DNA of 64,000 nt from a virus: the IMG/VR virus record IMGVR_UViG_3300009550_000008. One strand, written 5' to 3'. This document shows, one piece after another, positions 535-34,293 of this stretch (position 1 is its first letter; every line of letters starts with the position of its first letter). The notes under the pieces were generated by a model, which had not been told where the DNA came from, made no database searches, and worked only from the letters and a program-made list of their open reading frames with translations. The position numbers and the translations under genes are program-made.

Positions 535-768
535 ATGGCAGATACAAAAAATTTCAGAGTAGAGTATGGAATTAACAGTGGTTCTAGTGAGGTGATAAAT
601 TCAAGTGGGAAAGTTGTAGCATCTGCTCTATCAGCAGTCGATTCAGACGATATAACAGAAGGTTCGTCTAATACATTTTTTACTACAACCCGTGTGAATA
701 ACCACCTAGCAGATTCCGGCTCGGCAAAGACAATTAATAATGCTACAATAGATGGAGGAACATTCTAG
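535..768 (+). CDS. Short fibre-related protein, partial paralog of the downstream fibre
   Basis: GGAG RBS and upstream CATAAATA (484-491); shares NFxxxxG...EVIxSSG and D-x-TEGSSN motifs with ORF 768-2603. Confidence 0.6.
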   Translation: MADTKNFRVEYGINSGSSEVINSSGKVVASALSAVDSDDITEGSSNTFFTTTRVNNHLADSGSAKTINNATIDGGTF

Positions 769-2603
769 TGGCTGCACAGAATTTTAAAATCAAGAACGGT
801 TTAACGGTAGGTACTACTGAGGTAATCGATAGTTCAGGTGACTTAACAAATGCAGCTTTCGGAACTGCAGCTAAAGAAGCAATTGACGATCAAGTAAATA
901 CTCTAATGACCGCAGGTTCGGGAATCTCATTATCATATGACGATTCAGCAGGAACATTAACAGTAACAAGAGATGCAGAAACAGGAGACATCGAAGGAGT
1001 TGTTGCTGGTACAAACTTAAGTGGTGGTGGTACATCGGGTACAGTCACATTAAATGTAGAACAAGAATTAACAAACTCAACTGCACCATTTTACCATAAG
1101 ATCGCTGTAACAGTAGTCAGTGATAGTGGTAACAAATATGCAATGGATGGAAATACATCAGGTGGTGTTGCAGTTAGATTGATGCCTAATATAGTTTATA
1201 GGTTCGATCAATCAGACAGTTCAAACGCAAACCATCCATTAAGATTTTCAGAAACCTCAGATGGAACCCACAACAGTGGTGCAGAAATATCTGATGGTTA
1301 TCTAATATACAACAAAGTCGGAACACCAGGCTCGGCGGGTGCATACACAGAAGTTGCATTTGACCAAGAAAGTAACGACACATTATACACATACTGTTCT
1401 GCTCATAGTGGTATGGGACAGACAGTCACATTAGGATATGCTGGTGACATTACAGGTGTTACTGCTGGAGACGGTCTCTCAGGTGGTGGTGCAACTGGAG
1501 CGGTATCACTTGCATTAGATTTAAGTGAACTAACAGCTGCAGTGGTAGACCCTGCGACAGATAGTATTGCAATTATCGATGCTGGAGATGGTTCATCTAA
1601 GAAAGAAGCAATCGCAGACCTTGCAACGATGCAAGCTGGAGACGGACTAAGTGCATCAAGTGGTGCATTTGCAGTAAATGTAGATGACAGTTCAATAGAA
1701 ACAAGTTCAGATTCACTACAAGTCAAAGCTGGTGGTGTTACAAATGCAATGTTAGCAGGTTCAATTGCAAACGCAAAACTTGCAAATTCAGCAATCACAA
1801 TTGCTGGAAGTTCTACTTCATTAGGTGGAACAGTTCTTGCAGACACCGATGCATTAACAGAAGGTTCTTCAAACTTATATCTAACAAACGAAAGAATTGA
1901 TGACAGAGTTGCAACTCTTATAGTTGGTGGTTCAAATATCACATCAACTTATGATGATGCAGCGGGTACATTAACACTTGCTGGTTCGGCTGCATATGCA
2001 GACTCAGATGCAAGAGGTGCTATATCGGTAACCGATTCAGGTGGAGATGGTTCACTTGCATACAATAACTCTACAGGTGTTATCACATATACAGGCCCAA
2101 GTGCATCAGAAGTAAGAGCTCATATAACTGCTGGAACTGGTATTGGAATCAGTTCAGGTGAAGTAAGTATCGGGCAAGCAGTTGCAACATCAAGTAATGT
2201 TCAATTTGCAAACTTAACACTTTCAGGTGACTTAACAGTAAACGGAACAACCACAACAGTAGCAACAACAAACTCAGTGATTTCAGATGCATTGATAGAA
2301 CTAGGAAATGGAACATCAGGTTCACCAGCAAATGATGCTGGTCTAGTTATCGAAAGAGGAAGTTCAGACAATGTATTCATTGGTTGGGACGAAAGTGCAG
2401 ATGCAATCACATTCGGTACAGGTTCATTTACAGGTGCAGATACAGGTAACTTGACAATAACACCTAGTGCAGTAAACACAGGTGCAGTGACAATTACAAA
2501 CGCAACAAATAGTGGTGGTACAGCAAGGAATGTTTATCAGTCTACATCAGCTCCGACAGGTGGAGATGGTGCAGTTGGTGATTTATGGATTTTATACTCT
2601 TAA
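768..2603 (+). CDS. Tail fibre-like virion protein
   Basis: G/S/T/A-rich; repeated GDIxGVxAGxxLSGGG motifs; YRFDQSDSSN...HPLRFS...HSGMG module; C-terminal APTGGDGAVGDLW motif; GTG start overlaps the upstream stop. Confidence 0.75.
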   Translation: MAAQNFKIKNGLTVGTTEVIDSSGDLTNAAFGTAAKEAIDDQVNTLMTAGSGISLSYDDSAGTLTVTRDAETGDIEGVVAGTNLSGGGTSGTVTLNVEQELTNSTAPFYHKIAVTVVSDSGNKYAMDGNTSGGVAVRLMPNIVYRFDQSDSSNANHPLRFSETSDGTHNSGAEISDGYLIYNKVGTPGSAGAYTEVAFDQESNDTLYTYCSAHSGMGQTVTLGYAGDITGVTAGDGLSGGGATGAVSLALDLSELTAAVVDPATDSIAIIDAGDGSSKKEAIADLATMQAGDGLSASSGAFAVNVDDSSIETSSDSLQVKAGGVTNAMLAGSIANAKLANSAITIAGSSTSLGGTVLADTDALTEGSSNLYLTNERIDDRVATLIVGGSNITSTYDDAAGTLTLAGSAAYADSDARGAISVTDSGGDGSLAYNNSTGVITYTGPSASEVRAHITAGTGIGISSGEVSIGQAVATSSNVQFANLTLSGDLTVNGTTTTVATTNSVISDALIELGNGTSGSPANDAGLVIERGSSDNVFIGWDESADAITFGTGSFTGADTGNLTITPSAVNTGAVTITNATNSGGTARNVYQSTSAPTGGDGAVGDLWILYS

Positions 2604-2623: not shown

Positions 2624-3910
2624 ATGGCGTCAGGTAACCAAAAGGTTAAAACCCCTTCGGGTTGGAATGCAACTCAAGGTGCTTGGGTAAAAACAGGCAG
2701 TACAACTTGGAAGGCAGTAGATCAGATTTATATCAAGACTCCCGATGGATGGAATGATGCATCAGGACAAGAAGCAACGCAAATTCCTTACCCTTACATT
2801 GCAACTGGACAGGAACCAAACATTAGACAAACTATTGTTACATATCCTTACATTGCAAATGCTCAAGAACCAAATATAAGACAAACCATTGTTCCCTATC
2901 CTTACATTGCAAATGGTCAGGAACCTAACCAAAGATCAAGACAGATTTCTTATACCTATCAGGCACAGGCAAGACAACCAGTTGAATATCAATATGGTTC
3001 ACCGTTTACATACGATCATAGAGAACCTAATACATATTCAATAAGATCACCGTTTACATACGATCATAGGTCACCGTTCACTTATAATAGAACTGGAAGA
3101 AGTCCTTTTACTTATAATAGAACTGGTAGGACACCATTTACATATCAGGCACCAGCAAGACAACCTGCGACATATCAGGCTCCTGCTCGACAACCTTTTA
3201 TTGCAAATGCAAGACAACCGAATACATATCAAGCACCAGCAAGACAACCATTTATTGCAAGTGCAAGACAACCAGCAACATATCAAGCACCTGCGAGACA
3301 ACCGTTCATTGCATCTGCGAGACAACCTGCGACTTATCAAGCACCAGCAAGACAACCGTTCATTGCAAGTGCAAGAAACCCGTTCACTTATCAAGCAAGA
3401 ACACCAGTGTTTATACCAGGCGGTGGTGGTGGTTGCTTCAGTTCCGATATGCTTATTCTTATGGGTGATAATAGACTTATGCCTATCAGTGAAGTTCAAG
3501 CTGGAGACTTTGTATTATCATTTAACTTTGAAACTAACTTACTAGAATCTAGAGAAGTTGGTGCAATGATGGAACCAAGAGAAGATATACAACTATATAA
3601 TGTTAAACTTTCAAATGGTAACCACATTGAAATATCAGGTGGTCACCCAGTATCTACATCAAGAGGATGGAGATATATTAATGAGGATGCATGGAAAGTC
3701 GAAGTTGAAGCTGGAATTGCAGACTTCGAATGTGCAGAGGGTGAATTTGAAGTGGGTGACGAACTATTCTATTTCGGAGAACAAGAAGTGGTCGTTGAAA
3801 GTATAACTAAACAAGAAGAACTACAAACTACTTACAACATTGTATTAGTAGAAGGTAATGAAAACTATTTTGTGAATGGTGTTCTAGTTCATAACGGAGA
3901 GAAGAAGTAA
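2624..3910 (+). CDS. Repeat-rich fibre/adhesin-like protein A with C-terminal Hint (intein-like) domain
   Basis: Trp-rich N-terminus, 23 Pro-delimited 8/10-aa units, Gly5 linker, then a CF...SGGH...YFVNGVLVHN Hint domain; GAGG RBS. Confidence 0.8.
   Translation: MASGNQKVKTPSGWNATQGAWVKTGSTTWKAVDQIYIKTPDGWNDASGQEATQIPYPYIATGQEPNIRQTIVTYPYIANAQEPNIRQTIVPYPYIANGQEPNQRSRQISYTYQAQARQPVEYQYGSPFTYDHREPNTYSIRSPFTYDHRSPFTYNRTGRSPFTYNRTGRTPFTYQAPARQPATYQAPARQPFIANARQPNTYQAPARQPFIASARQPATYQAPARQPFIASARQPATYQAPARQPFIASARNPFTYQARTPVFIPGGGGGCFSSDMLILMGDNRLMPISEVQAGDFVLSFNFETNLLESREVGAMMEPREDIQLYNVKLSNGNHIEISGGHPVSTSRGWRYINEDAWKVEVEAGIADFECAEGEFEVGDELFYFGEQEVVVESITKQEELQTTYNIVLVEGNENYFVNGVLVHNGEKK
2786..3403 (+). 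repeat. Coding tandem array: 23 units of 8 or 10 aa (206 aa)
   Basis: Units such as PYPYIANAQE, PNIRQTIV, PFTYDHRS, PFTYNRTGRS, PATYQAPARQ, PFIASARQ. Confidence 0.9.
3434..3895 (+). other. Hint/BIL-type autoprocessing domain (154 aa, no homing endonuclease)
   Basis: Cys1 (TGC at 3434), block B SxxH, block F YNI...NYFVNG, terminal His-Asn followed by Gly-Glu-Lys-Lys-stop. Confidence 0.85.
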
Positions 3911-4602
3911 TGGCTCAACAACCGTATCCAGCTAGTGCCCAACAACCGTTTACTTATAACGCGCAGAATCCATTTACATATCCTGCGAATTATCAGAATC
4001 CGTTCACTTATAACGCACAGAACCCGTTCACATACCCAGCAAACTATCAGAACCCGTTCACATACAATGCACAGAATCCGTTTACTTATCCAGCAAACTA
4101 TCAGTCACCGTTTACGCATAATGCTCAGAATCCGTTTACTTACCCAGCAAACTATCAGAGTCCATTTACATATCCAGCAAATGCACAACAACCTTATCCG
4201 TATATTGCAAATGCACAACAACCGTATCCGTATACTGCAGTAGGACAACAACCTAATATTAGGGCTTCACAACAACCTGCGATTAAAGATAGACAATCAC
4301 CGTATATTGCAGCTGCACAGGAACCAAATATTAGAGATTTACAGAGTCCGTTTACATATATGAATCAGGGTCGAGTACCTCAGACATATATTCACCAGTC
4401 TCCATTTACATATTCAAGACAAGGTGATACACAACAGTCTTATGACCATAGAAGTCCATTTACTTATCAGGTTATTGCAAATACTCAGAACAACTATGAC
4501 CATAGGTCTCCGTTCACATATGCAAGACAGGGACGAACTCCTGAACCAAGATGGGATGGTGTGGTTACACAACAGTGGCCTGCGACTCCAATTACCTCTT
4601 AA
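3910..4602 (+). CDS. Repeat-rich protein B, mirror partner of 2624-3910
   Basis: TAATG stop/start coupling with the upstream ORF; 23 units of 8/10 aa from the same vocabulary. Confidence 0.8.
   Translation: MAQQPYPASAQQPFTYNAQNPFTYPANYQNPFTYNAQNPFTYPANYQNPFTYNAQNPFTYPANYQSPFTHNAQNPFTYPANYQSPFTYPANAQQPYPYIANAQQPYPYTAVGQQPNIRASQQPAIKDRQSPYIAAAQEPNIRDLQSPFTYMNQGRVPQTYIHQSPFTYSRQGDTQQSYDHRSPFTYQVIANTQNNYDHRSPFTYARQGRTPEPRWDGVVTQQWPATPITS
3922..4539 (+). repeat. Coding tandem array: 23 units of 8 or 10 aa (206 aa)
   Basis: Units such as PFTYNAQN, PFTYPANYQN, PYPYIANAQQ, PNIRASQQ, QNNYDHRS, PFTYARQGRT. Confidence 0.9.
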
Positions 4603-4623: not shown

Positions 4624-6189
4624 ATGTTAAAGACCATAGAAAACCTTGAACAAGCACGCAACTTTGAATTTAATACTCAGGGTATTGTTACCCAAGGATA
4701 TCAACAAGAAGCAATACGATTAGCAAATTCATATGATTTTGCAAGACCTAATAATGAAACGAGTGTTGATTGTTGGCAAGTGATGAAGTATGCCTTTGAG
4801 TCTCAACCACCTATAAAAAAGGTTCATTGGGAACAGATAAAAGAAAGGATAAATGATAATACATTACATACATTTGGACAATTACATCACAATTCTGTAC
4901 AGTATCTTAGATATGTTCAAGATGGTTGGACAGAAAAACTAAGACCCGACCATCCTATTGGTGGTGGTTCGATGGACTTTATGAATTATGATGATGAGTA
5001 TCAATGGTTATCAACTGTTAGTGACCATCCTGATTGTAATCAATTAAATCCAAGAGAAGAGAATACTCTAAGTTCATGTTATTATCACGCTGCAAAAGCA
5101 CACTGGTTAGTAAACAACATTCAGAAAGAAGGATTGAGACATCCTATCCAAGGACATACACATAAAAGTACAAGTGCCTCAGAATTTGGATTGACTATTC
5201 ATCCAGGCTCGATCAGATGTAGAGTAATGGAGACCCTTGATGACAATGAACTATATGTTTTAGTTACTGATTTTGAAAATGTATTTGATGAAGTAGAACC
5301 TTTTACATTCGAAGAGATGATGGATATGTGGGGTGAGTTAGGTAATAACAAAGGTAATCTATCTGCAATATTCGTTGATGGTAAAATAGAATGGTCACTA
5401 TCATCTACAGCTGGACTTGATTTTAGAGATGAAGTTTTTGATTTCAATAGAAAGGTAACTAAGTTAACGAAGAAAAAACCAGTTAACATATATCTTGGAT
5501 ACGATTCATCACATAGTGAGGTATACGATGTTGCAGAAGCTTCTATTCATCATTCTATAGAGAAATGTAAGAGTGGTGGTGTATCACATGAATTCTTTAA
5601 TGACTATAAGATAGAAGTCAAGAAACTTGACATTAATGCAATTTCAGAGTATACTAGACCTTACGCAAATCAATCTACTGAGTTTACTTACAGTAGATTC
5701 CTCATTCCATATCTAGAGAACTATGAAGGATTCAGTTTCTTTATAGATGACGATTACATATGGCAATGGTCACCTACATCCTTATTCTATTTCTTAGACC
5801 CTGAACATGCAATTGCTTGTGTTCAGTATCAGTTCGATCACCATGATGAAACCAAAATGGATGGTGAGAAGAATGTATCATATCCTAAAAAACTTTGGTC
5901 AAGTATGATGATCTTTAACAATGGTCATGAGGATTGTAAAAAATTAACACCCGAAGTTGTGAATACTGCAAGTGGACAATACTTACATCAGTTTGAATGG
6001 ACAGATCAGATCAGTGAAATCCCAGGCCATAAGATTGCAACAGAAGGATATGATAGTGAGTTATTAAAGACTCACCATGCAGTTCATTATACAAGAGGAG
6101 GCCCATGGATAAAAGACATGGATTATTCCAACATAAATATGTTAGAACTGTATAAACAGATGAAAAACAAGTTGCCAAAAAGCAACTAA
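4624..6189 (+). CDS. Fusion of a ParB/Srx-like N-terminal region and a GT-A glycosyltransferase
   Basis: C-terminal half has IYLGYDS, STEFTYSRFLIPYL, a DDD (DxD) motif, WSSMMIFN and HYTRGGPW; N-terminal half has WLVNNIQKEGLRHPI...HPGSIR. Confidence 0.7.
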   Translation: MLKTIENLEQARNFEFNTQGIVTQGYQQEAIRLANSYDFARPNNETSVDCWQVMKYAFESQPPIKKVHWEQIKERINDNTLHTFGQLHHNSVQYLRYVQDGWTEKLRPDHPIGGGSMDFMNYDDEYQWLSTVSDHPDCNQLNPREENTLSSCYYHAAKAHWLVNNIQKEGLRHPIQGHTHKSTSASEFGLTIHPGSIRCRVMETLDDNELYVLVTDFENVFDEVEPFTFEEMMDMWGELGNNKGNLSAIFVDGKIEWSLSSTAGLDFRDEVFDFNRKVTKLTKKKPVNIYLGYDSSHSEVYDVAEASIHHSIEKCKSGGVSHEFFNDYKIEVKKLDINAISEYTRPYANQSTEFTYSRFLIPYLENYEGFSFFIDDDYIWQWSPTSLFYFLDPEHAIACVQYQFDHHDETKMDGEKNVSYPKKLWSSMMIFNNGHEDCKKLTPEVVNTASGQYLHQFEWTDQISEIPGHKIATEGYDSELLKTHHAVHYTRGGPWIKDMDYSNINMLELYKQMKNKLPKSN

Positions 6190-6200
6190 TATGTTATAAT
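6172..6200 (+). promoter_or_regulatory. Sigma70-like promoter
   Basis: TTGCCA-N17-TATAAT upstream of ORF 6210. Confidence 0.5.
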
Positions 6201-6209
6201 GGAGATATT

Positions 6210-6779
6210 ATGAATTGTTTAATATACGATCAATGGGGTAATCTTTTTATAAGAAAACCTAATGGACTTGAGTGGAGACATGAAAATGTCGATAGACCTG
6301 CTTTAGGTTTTGACTTTGATGTTCTTATATACGATGATGTTGAATTTAAAATTGAAAAATTTGAAGACGGCAAAGAAATGGAAGAACAGGAAAAGCAACC
6401 CTTAACTGAAACCGATAAAGATGCCATCGAGGCATATATTGAAAATGCTGAACCCCCTAGTGGTGTCAGTCTAAACCAACAATATGTTGGGAGAATTGCA
6501 GAAGTTGTTAGAAACAATGTTATGCATCAATGTGAGAAATATGGATTCGATGATATGATCGAAGTATTGATGGCTGCAAGAGAAGGTTCTGCACATCCAT
6601 ATCGATCAAATGCTAGAAGAGCATTAGAATATTCAGATGCAGTAGCAAATGTTGCAGAGGGTGTATTCAGAGAGATTCAAATCACTAGAGAAGATACACT
6701 TAAACCTTTAGATGAATACATAATGCAAATACCACCTCCGTCTATTGGTGTTGGTAGAGATCAGTCTGTAGTAGGTTAA
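6210..6779 (+). CDS. Hypothetical protein, tail-fibre-assembly-like
   Basis: KYGFDDM...HPYRSNARRALEYSDAV resembles the C-terminal motif of fibre-adjacent chaperone-like proteins. Confidence 0.4.
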   Translation: MNCLIYDQWGNLFIRKPNGLEWRHENVDRPALGFDFDVLIYDDVEFKIEKFEDGKEMEEQEKQPLTETDKDAIEAYIENAEPPSGVSLNQQYVGRIAEVVRNNVMHQCEKYGFDDMIEVLMAAREGSAHPYRSNARRALEYSDAVANVAEGVFREIQITREDTLKPLDEYIMQIPPPSIGVGRDQSVVG

Positions 6780-6780
6780 C

Positions 6781-7497
6781 ATGCCCTCATTCGACTCGAT
6801 CAATGTCGAACACATTGAGTCCCCTTTTTACATCGAAGACATGCCTTTGGGTAATACTGTCTATGTTATAGATGATTATCTAGAGTCTTCACTTCATAAA
6901 GCCATGCATAGACATTTAGATCAGTGTTCATGGCAAAAGACTAATCAAGTCGATTATAGGGGCCCGAATCGAGGAGGACTTCCTAATCATTCTTTATGGG
7001 GATGTTCTTTTATAGTAGGTGAAAAACAAAATGATGGATATCTAAATGGTGCATCAGGATGTTCTAATTATTTAATTAGATGGTTTAATAGAAGACTAGA
7101 AACAGACTTTGGTTTTGCATGGGTAAGGTTTCAATATGCTGGTGCAAACTCTCAAACCCATGGTCAACATGGAACATGTCATGCAGATTGTCAGAAAGAT
7201 GATGAATGGAATCTTTCCTTTCTTTATTATACAAATAGATTTTGGAATCCACACTGGGGTGGTAAGTTAAGATTCTATAGTGAAAATAGAGAAGGTGGAA
7301 TCTTAGAACAAATGGATGATGTCGAAATAGGTTCCATTGATTTCAAACCAAATCGTCTCTTAATGTTTGATGGAAGAATACAACATGGTGCAGAAGCTCC
7401 ATCAGAAGATGCACGATATATAGATAGAAGATCAATTGTCGTTAGAGGAGACGAGATCGAGTTATTAAATAGGGGAGATAGATATGCCTACAATTGA
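6781..7497 (+). CDS. 2OG-Fe(II) oxygenase (prolyl-hydroxylase-like)
   Basis: HAD...WGGKLRF...FDGRIQH...R; HxD...H facial triad. Confidence 0.85.
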   Translation: MPSFDSINVEHIESPFYIEDMPLGNTVYVIDDYLESSLHKAMHRHLDQCSWQKTNQVDYRGPNRGGLPNHSLWGCSFIVGEKQNDGYLNGASGCSNYLIRWFNRRLETDFGFAWVRFQYAGANSQTHGQHGTCHADCQKDDEWNLSFLYYTNRFWNPHWGGKLRFYSENREGGILEQMDDVEIGSIDFKPNRLLMFDGRIQHGAEAPSEDARYIDRRSIVVRGDEIELLNRGDRYAYN

Positions 7498-8410
7498 GTT
7501 TAGAACATATAATAAACCATCGTTTGAAATGTTCAGACCAGTTGCAGCTAAATCTATGCAACCTGAATGGTGGAAGAAACAAAAGATTCGTGTAGATCAT
7601 CGTGGTCGTGTTGCACAAACAATAAGGTCTTGTCCTTCAATGCAAGACTGGTTAACAATGGGATATTATATTGTTTCAAGTGTTGATATCCCAATTAGAA
7701 ATGGATTAGATTGGAACTGGCCTAGTGGAGAAAGATTCTCTACGGATGAAGAAATTCCAGTACATTCTAGATCACACCCGTCTGCTCAAATGCAAGATTC
7801 TATAGAGTATTTGGGAGACGATGGCCCAGTTAAAGATGCATTTAAAATATCATCTTACTGGAATATGAAAACCCCGCCGGGCTATTCTGTTTTATTTTTA
7901 GACCCTTTCCTGTTTCAGAATAAATACTTTGCATGTTGGCAAGGAGTGATTGATACTGATGAGTTCAATGTTAATTTGGACAATGCACACATCATATTCT
8001 ATCCTAAAGTAAACCATTCATTTGTTATACCAGCTGGTACTCCACTGGTACAAGTGTTCCCATTTAAGAGGGAAGAATGGACATCAACATATTTTTTTCA
8101 AGAGCACTCAGATTGGCATAAGAATCATGGAACACATGAGAAGTCAATGCAAAAATGGCAAAGGAGTTTGGAATTGGTAGATGCAGATGGAACACCTAAT
8201 GAGAAGATCAACATCGGTGGTTATAGGAATGCTAAAATTTGGAAACCAAAGAGTAGATTCTTTGATAAACCCGAAGAAGTAAACCCACCACCTGAATGTC
8301 CAATGCACAGATCAGAAGAACAGCTGGAAATGGACTTTAATGATAAACAACGAGAGTTGACAGATTTAAATTGGGACGGTTCGGAGTCAAAGAAAATAGA
8401 TAGAGATTAG
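7484..8410 (+). CDS. Conserved phage protein (DUF6065-like) typical of oxygenase clusters
   Basis: TIRSCPSMQD, WNMKTPPGYSVLF, GVIDTD, IPAGTPLVQVFPFKR motifs. Confidence 0.55.
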   Translation: MPTIEFRTYNKPSFEMFRPVAAKSMQPEWWKKQKIRVDHRGRVAQTIRSCPSMQDWLTMGYYIVSSVDIPIRNGLDWNWPSGERFSTDEEIPVHSRSHPSAQMQDSIEYLGDDGPVKDAFKISSYWNMKTPPGYSVLFLDPFLFQNKYFACWQGVIDTDEFNVNLDNAHIIFYPKVNHSFVIPAGTPLVQVFPFKREEWTSTYFFQEHSDWHKNHGTHEKSMQKWQRSLELVDADGTPNEKINIGGYRNAKIWKPKSRFFDKPEEVNPPPECPMHRSEEQLEMDFNDKQRELTDLNWDGSESKKIDRD

Positions 8411-8413
8411 ATT

Positions 8414-9094
8414 ATGTCAGTTAGATTATTATTTCCAACATTACTTTTTGAGTATAACTTGTTGGAAGAAGGGTTAGTTACTCAAACATATTTGGATGAA
8501 TTAAAAGCAGATATGGATGCAATGAGAATGAAAGACCCAGTGGGAAGACAGATTTCTAATGCATATACTGGTTGGCAATCGAATGATGGTTGTGAGTCTA
8601 GGCCTGCATGGGTAAAAATGATGAGAATCATTAAAGAGAAATTCAACCAAGAGATACTTCCTTTTAGTGGAGTGGATACATCAAAATTCCAAGTTAGAAT
8701 GGGTAATTGTTGGGCAAATGTAAATGATAGAGGTGCATGGAATAAACCACATGGTCACAATGGATGTTGGTGGAGTGGTGCATTATATATTAATGCAGAA
8801 GGTGACGAAGGAGATTTCGTTGCAATCAATACAGACCCTAAAGTATTAAGTGACTTCCCAGCTGCACCTAGGTTTAGAGAGAATCATTGTATAAGACCTA
8901 TCTCAGGAACACTTCTTTGTTTCCCTAGTGGTCTACTACATATGGTTGAACCTAATGCATCAAGTAATGATAGATACAGTGTTGCATTTAATATGAATAA
9001 CGAAAGGTTAAGTGGGTCACCTCAAGAGACAGCAATTCCTATAGATGACAACTGGAATAAATTCGATATAGAAGAAGGCGAAGTAAAGAGATAA
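8414..9094 (+). CDS. 2OG-Fe(II) oxygenase, TIGR02466-like
   Basis: LFPT, GWQS, WANVN...NKPHGH...SGALY...FPSGLLHMVEPN...RYSVAFN. Confidence 0.85.
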   Translation: MSVRLLFPTLLFEYNLLEEGLVTQTYLDELKADMDAMRMKDPVGRQISNAYTGWQSNDGCESRPAWVKMMRIIKEKFNQEILPFSGVDTSKFQVRMGNCWANVNDRGAWNKPHGHNGCWWSGALYINAEGDEGDFVAINTDPKVLSDFPAAPRFRENHCIRPISGTLLCFPSGLLHMVEPNASSNDRYSVAFNMNNERLSGSPQETAIPIDDNWNKFDIEEGEVKR

Positions 9095-10234: not shown

Positions 10235-11092
10235 ATGCCTACGAATGTTTACTTTAATCATGCTGTAAAGACAGAACAGCACCTCTATGAGGACTTAGTC
10301 GTTGAATCATTACGATTCTACGGACACGATGTCTTATATCTACCTAGAACAATTGTAGAAGAGGATACTATTTTCACCGAGGATGTACAATCCACATTCG
10401 GTGACGCCTATTCGGTTGAAATGTATCTCGAAAATACAGAAGGGTTCGAAGGAGACGGAGACCTTGTTTCTAAGTTCGGTGTACAGATACAAGAGGAAGC
10501 AACATTCATTATATCTTTAAGAACATGGGAGAGATTCATTTCCCTAGATTCTAACCTTGCAGTATCACTAAGACCTAACGAAGGGGATTTAATTTACTTC
10601 CCACTTACAGGTTCATTATTTGAAATCAGATTCGTAGAAGACCAAGACCCATTCTTCCAGTTAGGAAAGATGTTTGTATTCAAGATGAGATGTTCATTGT
10701 TCGAATACTCAGGAGAAGATTTCGATACTGGTACAAGTGCAGACTTGGTAGAAGCAGATCAAGCTTACACAATCGAATTGACCATGACTGGTTCAGGAAA
10801 CTATACTCATGGAGAGAATTTAACTACTGTAATTGATTCAGTTACACATACAGTTGGAGAGGTTGTACTATGGCAACCAAACGCAAACAAACTTACAATT
10901 AAGGATAACACTAAGACACTACAAGTTGGAGATACACTAACAGGTGCATCATCTACAACTGCAAGAGCAATTGGAAGTATCGTGGATGTTCAATCATTCC
11001 ATAATCTAGCTTCTGCTCAGAATGTAGAGTTCGAAGAGAAGGATAGTTCATATCTAGACTTTAGTGAAGTGAATCCATTCGGTGAACCATAA
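10235..11092 (+). CDS. gp14: Neck protein / head closure
   Basis: EQHLYEDLVVESL, YLPR, RPNEGDLIYFP, C-terminal DFSEVNPFGEP. Confidence 0.92.
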   Translation: MPTNVYFNHAVKTEQHLYEDLVVESLRFYGHDVLYLPRTIVEEDTIFTEDVQSTFGDAYSVEMYLENTEGFEGDGDLVSKFGVQIQEEATFIISLRTWERFISLDSNLAVSLRPNEGDLIYFPLTGSLFEIRFVEDQDPFFQLGKMFVFKMRCSLFEYSGEDFDTGTSADLVEADQAYTIELTMTGSGNYTHGENLTTVIDSVTHTVGEVVLWQPNANKLTIKDNTKTLQVGDTLTGASSTTARAIGSIVDVQSFHNLASAQNVEFEEKDSSYLDFSEVNPFGEP

Positions 11093-11093
11093 A

Positions 11094-11309
11094 ATGATAG
11101 AAAAAATAATAGCAGAAACGATTGGTTGTGACCAAGACGCAGTAAAAGATAAATCAAATTTTGTAAAAGATTTAGGTGCAGACTCATTAAATATTGTTGA
11201 ATTGGTCATGGAAATTGAAAAAGAATTTGATATAGAAGTTCCTGATGATGATGCAGAAACATTACATACAGTTGCAGACTTGAAACAGTATATTGAGGAC
11301 AACTCATAA
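11094..11309 (+). CDS. acpP: Acyl carrier protein
   Basis: DLGADSL phosphopantetheine motif and VELVMEIEKEFDIEVPDDDAE; ATG at 11094 preferred over GTG at 11082. Confidence 0.9.
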   Translation: MIEKIIAETIGCDQDAVKDKSNFVKDLGADSLNIVELVMEIEKEFDIEVPDDDAETLHTVADLKQYIEDNS

Positions 11310-34216: not shown

Positions 34217-34293
34217 CTCCGTGTAGCTCAACTGGATAGAGCAACGGCCTTCTAAGCCGTAGGTTAGAGGTTCGAGTCCTCTCACGGAGGCCA
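34217..34293 (+). tRNA. tRNA-Arg (anticodon UCU)
   Basis: Acceptor stem CTCCGTG/CACGGAG, D arm GCTC/GAGC, anticodon arm ACGGC-CT-TCT-AA-GCCGT, T loop GTTCGAG, encoded CCA. Confidence 0.96.

What the first reader, a model, noticed from the sequence alone, without database searches (positions are those of the whole stretch)
2624..4602. Two adjacent genes encode mirror-image repeat arrays: a candidate two-chain antiparallel zipper fibre with a pairing code
Seen: cutting at the recurring Pro position, ORF A (aa 55-260) has 23 units of lengths 10,8,10,8,10,8,10,8,8,8,8,10,10,10,10,8,10,8,10,8,10,8,8. ORF B (aa 5-210) has 23 units of lengths 8,8,10,8,10,8,10,8,10,10,10,10,8,8,8,8,10,8,10,8,10,8,10, which is the exact reverse. 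Both arrays total 206 aa. Four of the 46 units begin with T, S or Q instead of P but keep register. Unit types pair reciprocally, whichever chain carries them: PYPYIATGQE (A1) faces PFTYARQGRT (B23), and PFTYNRTGRS/T (A12-13) face PYPYTAVGQQ/PYPYIANAQQ (B12-11). PNIRQTIV (A2, A4) face QNNYDHRS/QQSYDHRS (B22, B20), and PFTYDHRS (A11) faces PNIRASQQ (B13). The expanded 18-aa repeat in A (PATYQAPARQ-PFIASARQ) is matched copy for copy by one in B (PFTYNAQN-PFTYPANYQN). The genes are TAATG-coupled. Inference: A runs outward and B runs back as one long beta-ribbon (about 70 nm if fully extended), docked by the Trp-rich N-terminus of A to the upstream fibre, and repeat gains or losses in the two genes must be co-selected. 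I know of no described system like this.
Basis: partly seen in the sequence, partly recalled or inferred. Interest (0 to 1): 0.93.

Follow-up and report, generated by a model that had tools for sequence, protein, structure and literature searches.

The report
Mirror-coded two-protein phage fibre zipper
Two neighbouring genes of an uncultured marine T4-like phage encode repeat proteins that match each other residue by residue only when one is read backwards, a rule kept in over 100 related gene pairs, so the two chains most likely zip head-to-tail into a long thin fibre by a pairing code that I could not find described.

Summary
Confirmed and strongly conserved. ORF A (aa 55-260) and ORF B (aa 5-210) have exactly reversed unit lengths. 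112 of 128 distinct homologous A/B pairs are mirrored (1.3% of cross-locus pairs), over arrays of 186-540 aa and 82 different proline barcodes. Close strains show matched indels in both genes. A residue code at one register (F-A, Y-A/R/V/G, P-Q/R, T-N) puts all 8045 prolines in one pair class and nearly all aromatics in the other, as a two-stranded antiparallel beta-ribbon requires. The mirror survives swapped gene order (B-A) and has no DNA/RNA complementarity behind it. A paralogous module in the same phages occurs both split and as a one-chain hairpin; AlphaFold2 (low confidence) places long strands at the code's register there. Best reading: a heterodimeric fibre needle docked on the upstream fibre. 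No A+B complex could be modelled (tool unavailable) and nothing is shown experimentally. The scan found this system before on other DNA; no paper found.

The parts
768..2603 (+). Upstream 611-aa Gly/Thr/Ala-rich fibre-like protein ending in GDLWILYS; putative carrier on which the A/B needle docks
   Evidence: PHROGs tail-fibre/structural hits, E 1e-13 to 2e-6; weak tblastn hits to phage tail-fibre proteins; the gene directly before the module ends in G-D-[LM]-W in 120 of 124 loci. Docking is inferred.
2624..2785 (+). ORF A aa 1-54: conserved Trp-rich cap, three predicted short beta-hairpins; putative base/docking domain
   Evidence: Nearly invariant over homologues; AF2 strands 8-45 in a homologue at pLDDT 40-59; no family or isolate match
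2786..3403 (+). ORF A aa 55-260: outgoing arm, 23 Pro-punctuated units of 8 or 10 aa
3404..3433 (+). ORF A aa 261-270: tip segment and Gly5 linker
   Evidence: a Gly-rich segment is also typical of Hint-less tips
3434..3895 (+). ORF A aa 271-424: Hint domain, Cys271 to His423-Asn424, +1 residue Gly (type-A BIL-like); followed by a 4-residue Lys-containing tail (3896-3907)
   Evidence: PF14890 E 5e-9, 36.5 bits vs cut-off 35.8; PDB intein/BIL hits; present in 51 of 128 pairs
3908..3912 (+). TAATG stop/start overlap coupling A and B
   Evidence: not universal: gaps of 0-65 nt, an inserted gene or swapped order in homologues
3922..4539 (+). ORF B aa 5-210: returning arm, 23 units, exact reverse complement-in-type of A's array (A residue i faces B residue 264-i)
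4540..4602 (+). ORF B aa 211-230: conserved C-terminal anchor (R-W-D-G ... W-P), predicted to end beside A's cap at the base
   Evidence: invariant columns; fixed offset to A's cap in all mirrored pairs
4624..6189 (+). 521-aa protein with a weak GT8 glycosyltransferase-like C-terminal half; conserved downstream neighbour, role unknown
   Evidence: PF01501 E 0.014, below cut-off; first downstream gene in 115 of 119 loci

Best explanation
A and B are two structural proteins that bind each other antiparallel and in a single register along their whole arrays (A residue i opposite B residue 264-i), forming a long, thin, twisted two-stranded beta-ribbon. A runs out from its Trp-rich cap and B runs back to end beside the cap. 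Pairs alternate between a Pro/Gln/Arg/Thr/Asn/Ile class (Pro is tolerated only where the NH points away from the partner, which also blocks the edges) and an aromatic-opposite-small class that forms one hydrophobic face, probably buried by coiling or by packing of several ribbons (e.g. 3:3). The irregular order of units is a barcode that fixes register and partner. The base docks on the C-terminus of the upstream fibre; the tip (A's C-terminus plus B's N-terminus) is an exchangeable module, here a Hint domain that probably cuts itself off. The assembly is most likely a needle-like extension of a tail fibre used to reach or probe host receptors. Shown: mirror, code, matched indels, order independence, fused/split paralogue. 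Inferred: direct binding, beta geometry, stoichiometry, docking, virion location, Hint activity.
For: 112/128 pairs mirrored vs 1.3% of cross pairs; 82 barcodes. Antiparallel register peak 0.90 vs 0.0-0.62 off-register; best parallel 0.56. Matched indels at facing positions, e.g. L007/L008 (+18/+18), L032/L048 (18, 10, 8 in both genes), L150/L221 (16/16), L133/L223 (8/8), L137/L236 (6/6). All facing units have even length. Covariation peak at k+m=L-2 in 6-, 8- and 10-mers. Pro 8045 even / 0 odd; aromatics 9871 odd / 40 even; F/Y never faces F/Y, 0 vs 1371 expected (related sequences, so counts are not independent). A-B scores exceed A-A, B-B and self-hairpin scores in all 15 pairs sampled. Mirror intact in B-A gene order. 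Paralogous module is either one chain with mirrored arms or two mirrored genes, and does not cross-match A/B. AF2 on the one-chain paralogue P0041 gives only two long strands, 13-36 and 418-441, sum 454, the register the code gave. Location in the fibre region between VrlC and neck gp13/14 (PMC7029224 describes this host-recognition cluster in related phages).
Against: No confident structure: both AF2 models have mean pLDDT about 35. The model of a natural A-B joined ORF (L248, alignment of A rows only) did not pair the arms and folded A's 18-mers as a low-confidence solenoid. 16 of 128 pairs fall below the threshold: one is a truncated contig, seven are single-gene copy-number variants 99-100% identical to a matched sibling (assembly collapse or real intermediates, not resolved), the rest are diverged or unexplained (L030, L073, L074, L180). 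No isolate carries the genes, so no proteomics or EM exists.
Confidence: 0.72

Rival explanations
1. A and B do pair antiparallel by the code, but B is a transient template or chaperone/ruler for A (or the reverse) and is not part of the mature fibre.
For: Phage fibres often need dedicated chaperones encoded next door (gp38/gp57A for T4 gp37, PMC6957217); sequence covariation cannot tell permanent from transient contact.
Against: The same unit types occur on either chain (149 shared types, about 70% of units), and in the paralogous module both arms can lie in one polypeptide, which fits two equal structural strands.
Confidence: 0.08
2. A and B pair in register but in another geometry (each chain a narrow beta-solenoid or meander packed antiparallel, or a closed six-stranded barrel), not a simple two-stranded ribbon.
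For: AF2 gave a low-confidence solenoid for A's 18-residue repeats when B rows were absent (best Z 4.0). One fully aromatic face needs burial.
Against: Free mixing of 4-, 6-, 8- and 10-residue units is hard to fit in a solenoid; strict two-residue parity and one-class prolines fit a two-stranded ribbon; AF2 drew 24-residue continuous strands at the coded register in P0041.
Confidence: 0.12
3. The zipper is real but is not a virion fibre (for example a filament displayed on or in the infected cell, or a capsid/neck appendage).
For: The host-recognition cluster of related phages also holds non-structural genes (PMC7029224); glycosyltransferase-like and 2OG oxygenase genes follow.
Against: Both paralogous modules sit directly behind a fibre-like gene with a similar C-terminal Gly-x-x-Trp motif; the variable part is at the predicted tip.
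Confidence: 0.06
4. The mirror is made at the nucleic-acid level (inversion, RNA hairpin, templated copying or read-through across the A/B junction), or is chance or an assembly artefact, with no protein contact.
For: Watson-Crick matches are slightly raised at the codon-facing register (33% vs 25% expected).
Against: No inverted repeat over 19 nt; synonymous shuffles give 32%; the mirror persists when gene order is swapped or a gene is inserted between A and B; 82 different barcodes from many independent samples.
Confidence: 0.01

Closest known systems
Needle (domain D11 stem) of the phage T4 long tail fibre protein gp37 (PMC6957217; crystal structure PDB 2XGF from my own knowledge)
   Same: Thin distal fibre element made of an outgoing and a returning segment of equal length (residues 882-931 and 960-1009) with a tip inserted at the turn; T4-like phage fibre.
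   Different: gp37 is one chain in a homotrimer, arms of 50 residues, held by seven His-bound irons and a D10 collar. Here the arms are two gene products of 186-540 residues built from shuffled Pro-punctuated units with a reciprocal pairing code; no His-x-His series, no sequence match.
Streptococcal antigen I/II stalk (A repeats and P repeats; PMC3178794 for the repeats, structure from my own knowledge)
   Same: Two distant repeat regions run antiparallel and in register to project a tip domain.
   Different: One chain; alpha-helix against polyproline-II helix with two unlike regular repeats. Here both arms share one unit vocabulary, have two-residue periodicity and an irregular barcode, on two chains.
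Type-A bacterial intein-like (BIL) Hint domains (PMC7765530)
   Same: Hint fold, Cys1, terminal His-Asn without a Cys/Ser/Thr at +1, placed in a hypervariable region of a non-conserved protein.
   Different: Concerns only the optional tip of A; found here in phages, behind a poly-Gly linker and before a very short Lys-containing tail; activity untested.
Host recognition cluster of pelagimyophages (PMC7029224)
   Same: Genomic position between VrlC and the neck genes, with fibres and glycosyltransferases; major capsid protein 65-68% identical to HTVC008M and Melnitz.
   Different: The passages I searched do not describe mirrored repeat genes, and the cultured phages lack A and B.

Membership tests
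T4 gp37-type needle | Out-and-back arms of equal length with a tip at the turn | tested here: met
   By sequence complementarity only; not shown structurally
T4 gp37-type needle | Both arms in one polypeptide | tested here: not met
   Two ORFs in 128 pairs, in either order; two joined ORFs (L213, L248) may be assembly chimeras. The paralogous module can be one chain.
T4 gp37-type needle | Series of His-x-His motifs binding iron in the core | tested here: not met
   No such series in A or B; His is 3.5% of one pair class and faces Asn
T4 gp37-type needle | Sequence or fold homology to gp37 D10/D11 | tested here: inconclusive
   No PDB or PHROG sequence match; fold searches used low-confidence models
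T4 gp37-type needle | Trimeric assembly on the virion, receptor binding at the tip | not testable with these tools
   Complex prediction unavailable; no isolate
Antigen I/II stalk | Ala-rich helical repeat paired with a three-residue-period polyproline-II repeat | tested here: not met
   All units even in length, strict two-residue parity, same vocabulary on both arms
Type-A BIL Hint domain (tip of A only) | Hint domain with Cys1 and terminal His-Asn | tested here: met
   C271, H423-N424
Type-A BIL Hint domain (tip of A only) | No Cys/Ser/Thr after the terminal Asn; no homing endonuclease; variable host region | tested here: met
   +1 is Gly here and G/F/R/M/I/L/V in homologues; domain 154 aa; patchy presence, at least 8 changes on a neighbour-gene tree
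Type-A BIL Hint domain (tip of A only) | Autocleavage activity | not testable with these tools
   Needs expression and mass spectrometry

The most novel reading that the evidence does not exclude
A natural, programmable protein duplex: two separately encoded chains recognise each other by a modular reverse-complement code (unit length plus residue pairing), so any string of units specifies one partner and one register. Fibre length and partner specificity are written directly in the order of units, paralogous zippers in one virion stay orthogonal, and the chains can be fused, split or reordered without loss.
Probability: 0.6. Interest if true: 0.92.

Novelty: categorically new. Interest (0 to 1): 0.84.

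Why it matters
If the chains pair as the sequences indicate, this is a protein analogue of base pairing: a small set of reciprocal beta-strand modules giving length-tunable, orthogonal heterodimeric rods of up to about 540 residues per strand, far longer than the 50-residue arms of the T4 needle. It would supply design rules for long two-stranded beta-ribbons, which are hard to predict and build. It would also give a clean natural case of compensatory indel evolution between two genes, and a candidate host-recognition structure for a widespread group of uncultured marine T4-like phages.

Tried and rejected
No whole genome is held. DNA inversion, RNA duplex and synonymous-level complementarity rejected. 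Parallel in-register pairing and homodimer or self-hairpin pairing score far lower. Pfam, PHROGs, NCBIfam, PDB, ESM Atlas and isolate-phage searches gave nothing for the arrays or cap; BLAST's low-complexity filter weakens the isolate result, but the cap alone also found nothing. Fold searches on the two low-confidence models gave no meaningful match; this is not evidence of a new fold. An alignment with both A and B fragments for AF2 misaligned and was dropped. Joined A-B ORFs L213 and L248 are mirrored only over the outer 150 and 85 residues and look like chimeric or collapsed assemblies; not counted as evidence of fusion. Homology of A's cap to the paralogue's C-terminal cap is only suggestive (hhalign probability 5%, E 0.008). 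Hint-mediated ligation of A to B's N-terminus was considered: B's N-terminus shows no Hint-specific feature and 77 of 128 pairs lack the Hint. Seven literature searches, including the repeat motifs themselves (0 papers), found no description; the library lacks most subscription journals.

Full report
CONTEXT. The window is part of a T4-like myophage genome: neck, terminase, sheath and capsid genes follow the region, and the major capsid protein is 68% identical to OM43 phage Melnitz and 65% to Pelagibacter phage HTVC008M. The host is unknown. In a homologous contig the locus lies between VrlC (DUF4815) and the neck genes, the variable host-recognition cluster described for pelagimyophages (PMC7029224). 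No cultured phage carries A or B. Homologues come from viral and metagenome contigs, and three sit in MAG bins, probably as phage contigs.

OBSERVATION. Confirmed in every detail. Using a pair matrix trained on other loci, the window's A and B fit at one register only (261 vs 60 for the next), above all 20,000 unit-order shuffles and all 20,000 shuffles that keep the lengths in place. So both length order and unit type carry information. Of all B chains collected, only those of the two near-identical strains fit window A as well; the median is -83.

CONSERVATION. Anchoring A at its cap and B at its C-terminal R-W-D motif, with no alignment or gaps, prolines of the two chains face each other along the whole array. 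In the first 55 pairs the median fraction of B prolines faced by an A proline, beyond the conserved first 60 residues, was 0.95 in own pairs and 0.31 in cross pairs. In the full set, 112 of 128 distinct pairs reach 0.75, against 1.3% of cross pairs; arrays span 186-540 aa with 82 distinct proline patterns. Close strains differ by indels of the same size at facing positions in both genes, up to three matched indels in one comparison. Of the 16 pairs below threshold, one is a truncated contig; seven are 99-100% identical to a matched sibling except for whole repeat copies in one gene, mostly losses, as assembly collapse would give, although real one-step intermediates are not excluded; the rest are diverged or unexplained.

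THE CODE. Facing units have even lengths (mainly 8, 6 and 10, some 4) and are of opposite type; either type can be on either chain. Mutual information peaks where positions k and m in facing units of length L satisfy k+m=L-2, which is i+j=264 in the window. At this register pairs alternate strictly. One class is Pro-Gln, Pro-Arg, Thr-Asn, Ile-Gln. The other is Tyr-Ala, Phe-Ala, Tyr-Arg, Tyr-Val, Tyr-Gly, His-Asn, Glu-Ser. All 8045 prolines of both chains fall in the first class, 9871 of 9911 aromatics in the second, and Phe/Tyr never faces Phe/Tyr (0 vs 1371 expected) (sequences are related, so these are descriptive counts). From established beta-sheet geometry: cross-strand pairs in a two-stranded antiparallel ribbon alternate between hydrogen-bonded and non-bonded sites on opposite faces, and proline fits only at non-bonded sites, where it also blocks edge extension. 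The pattern is what such a ribbon predicts, with large-opposite-small packing on one aromatic face. That this face is buried by coiling or by several ribbons is inference.

NOT A NUCLEIC-ACID EFFECT. There are no long inverted repeats. Nucleotide complementarity is at most 33% and is explained by the amino-acid pairs (32% after synonymous shuffling). In one group of loci the gene order is B then A, and the mirror is complete (B 4-213 with A 55-264 in L185-L192; also L275). In about a dozen loci an extra gene of about 95 aa lies between A and B. These rule out read-through, mRNA hairpins and nested templating.

FUSED AND SPLIT PARALOGUE. A search for longer relatives revealed a second module a few kb upstream in the same phages, again directly behind a fibre-like gene with a similar C-terminal Gly-x-x-Trp motif (lead from note e1-5878361, checked here: G-D-[LM]-W ends the gene before A/B in 120 of 124 loci). 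The code learned from A/B finds that this module is either one protein whose two arms complement each other (for example P0041, 18-158 with 296-436) or two genes that complement each other (L092, L093, L095, L098, L109), while the two modules of one genome do not match each other (347 vs 57 and 49 in L081). AlphaFold2 on P0041 was of low confidence overall (mean pLDDT 34.9), but its only long strands were 13-36 and 418-441, whose sum, 454, is the register given by the code. I infer their pairing from the secondary-structure listing; the alignment supplied the covariation, so this is only partly independent. A second model, of a joined A-B ORF that may be an assembly artefact and with A rows only, showed short hairpin strands in the cap, did not pair the arms and gave a low-confidence solenoid: inconclusive, and counted against.

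THE TIP. Beyond the paired region A ends in a short Gly-rich tail (64 pairs), a Gly linker plus Hint domain (51) or an unrelated domain of about 140 aa (13). On a tree of the downstream neighbour protein, Hint presence needs at least 8 changes, so tips are gained, lost or exchanged repeatedly while cap and anchor stay nearly invariant. The Hint has the marks of a type-A BIL domain (PMC7765530); 36 of 39 distinct Hint tails have a Lys in the last three residues. Self-removal is the likely action; it is optional to the zipper.

MECHANISM. Shown: reverse complementarity, residue code, compensated indels, independence of gene order, fused and split forms of a paralogue. Inferred: A and B are co-translated, zip antiparallel in the one register that the barcode allows, dock by cap and anchor on the upstream fibre's C-terminus, and project the variable tip up to about 70 nm (206 x 0.34 nm, an upper bound). 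Matched indels most simply arise in two steps, a tolerated bulge followed by compensation; the unmatched loci may be such steps or artefacts.

COMPARISON AND NOVELTY. It works like the out-and-back stem of the T4 gp37 needle (arms 882-931 and 960-1009, seven His-bound irons, homotrimer; PMC6957217) but fails that family's single-chain and His-iron features and shows no homology. It differs from the antigen I/II stalk in periodicity and composition. I found no paper describing a two-gene, unit-coded antiparallel zipper. The scan has reported this system, and a different His/Phe-coded one, on other DNA; those notes are not independent evidence and my scores rest on tests made here.

VERDICT. Real, conserved and under selection at the protein level; most likely a heterodimeric beta-ribbon fibre needle with a pairing code. 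Interest 0.84; structure and function await experiment.

Noticed in passing
L081:10001-11377, L084-L091 and L102-L107 at 6001 (one chain); L092, L093, L095, L097-L099, L103, L109, L110 (split): A paralogous mirror module upstream of the window, directly after VrlC and a fibre-like gene; fused in some phages, split in others, with its cap at the C-terminus. It is present in the near-identical relative L085, so probably just off the left end of this window's genome.
   Followed up: yes
L184-L192, L275: Gene order B then A with the mirror intact.
   Followed up: yes
L051, L052, L057, L063, L065, L067, L075, L076 between A and B: A ends in an unrelated Pro/Ser/Gly/Tyr-rich domain of about 140 aa and a small acidic gene of 86-100 aa is inserted between A and B; possibly a tip domain with its own partner or chaperone. 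One clade on the neighbour tree.
   Followed up: partly
window 535-768 and L081-L110 upstream genes: Several small and large genes in the fibre region all end in the same five residues, DGGTF, each followed by another fibre-like gene.
   Followed up: no
window 4624-9094: A conserved block follows the zipper genes: GT8-like 521 aa (115 of 119 loci), a 189-aa unknown, then 2OG-Fe(II) oxygenases. They might modify the Pro/Thr/Tyr-rich fibre (hydroxylation, glycosylation); untested.
   Followed up: partly
window 11082-11309: Phage-encoded acyl carrier protein (TIGR00517 above cut-off) inserted among the neck/tail-completion genes.
   Followed up: no
L016, L030, P0002, P0068: A variant Hint-like tip starting with a Cys-rich motif and lacking the terminal His-Asn; it occurs on both modules.
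   Followed up: no
P0001 (1954-nt contig), L213:777-2165, L248:304-1266: Single ORFs joining the start of one arm or module to the end of B; only partly mirrored; possibly chimeric assemblies or recombinants through shared repeat units.
   Followed up: partly
window 34217-34293: One tRNA-Arg(TCT) gene.
   Followed up: no
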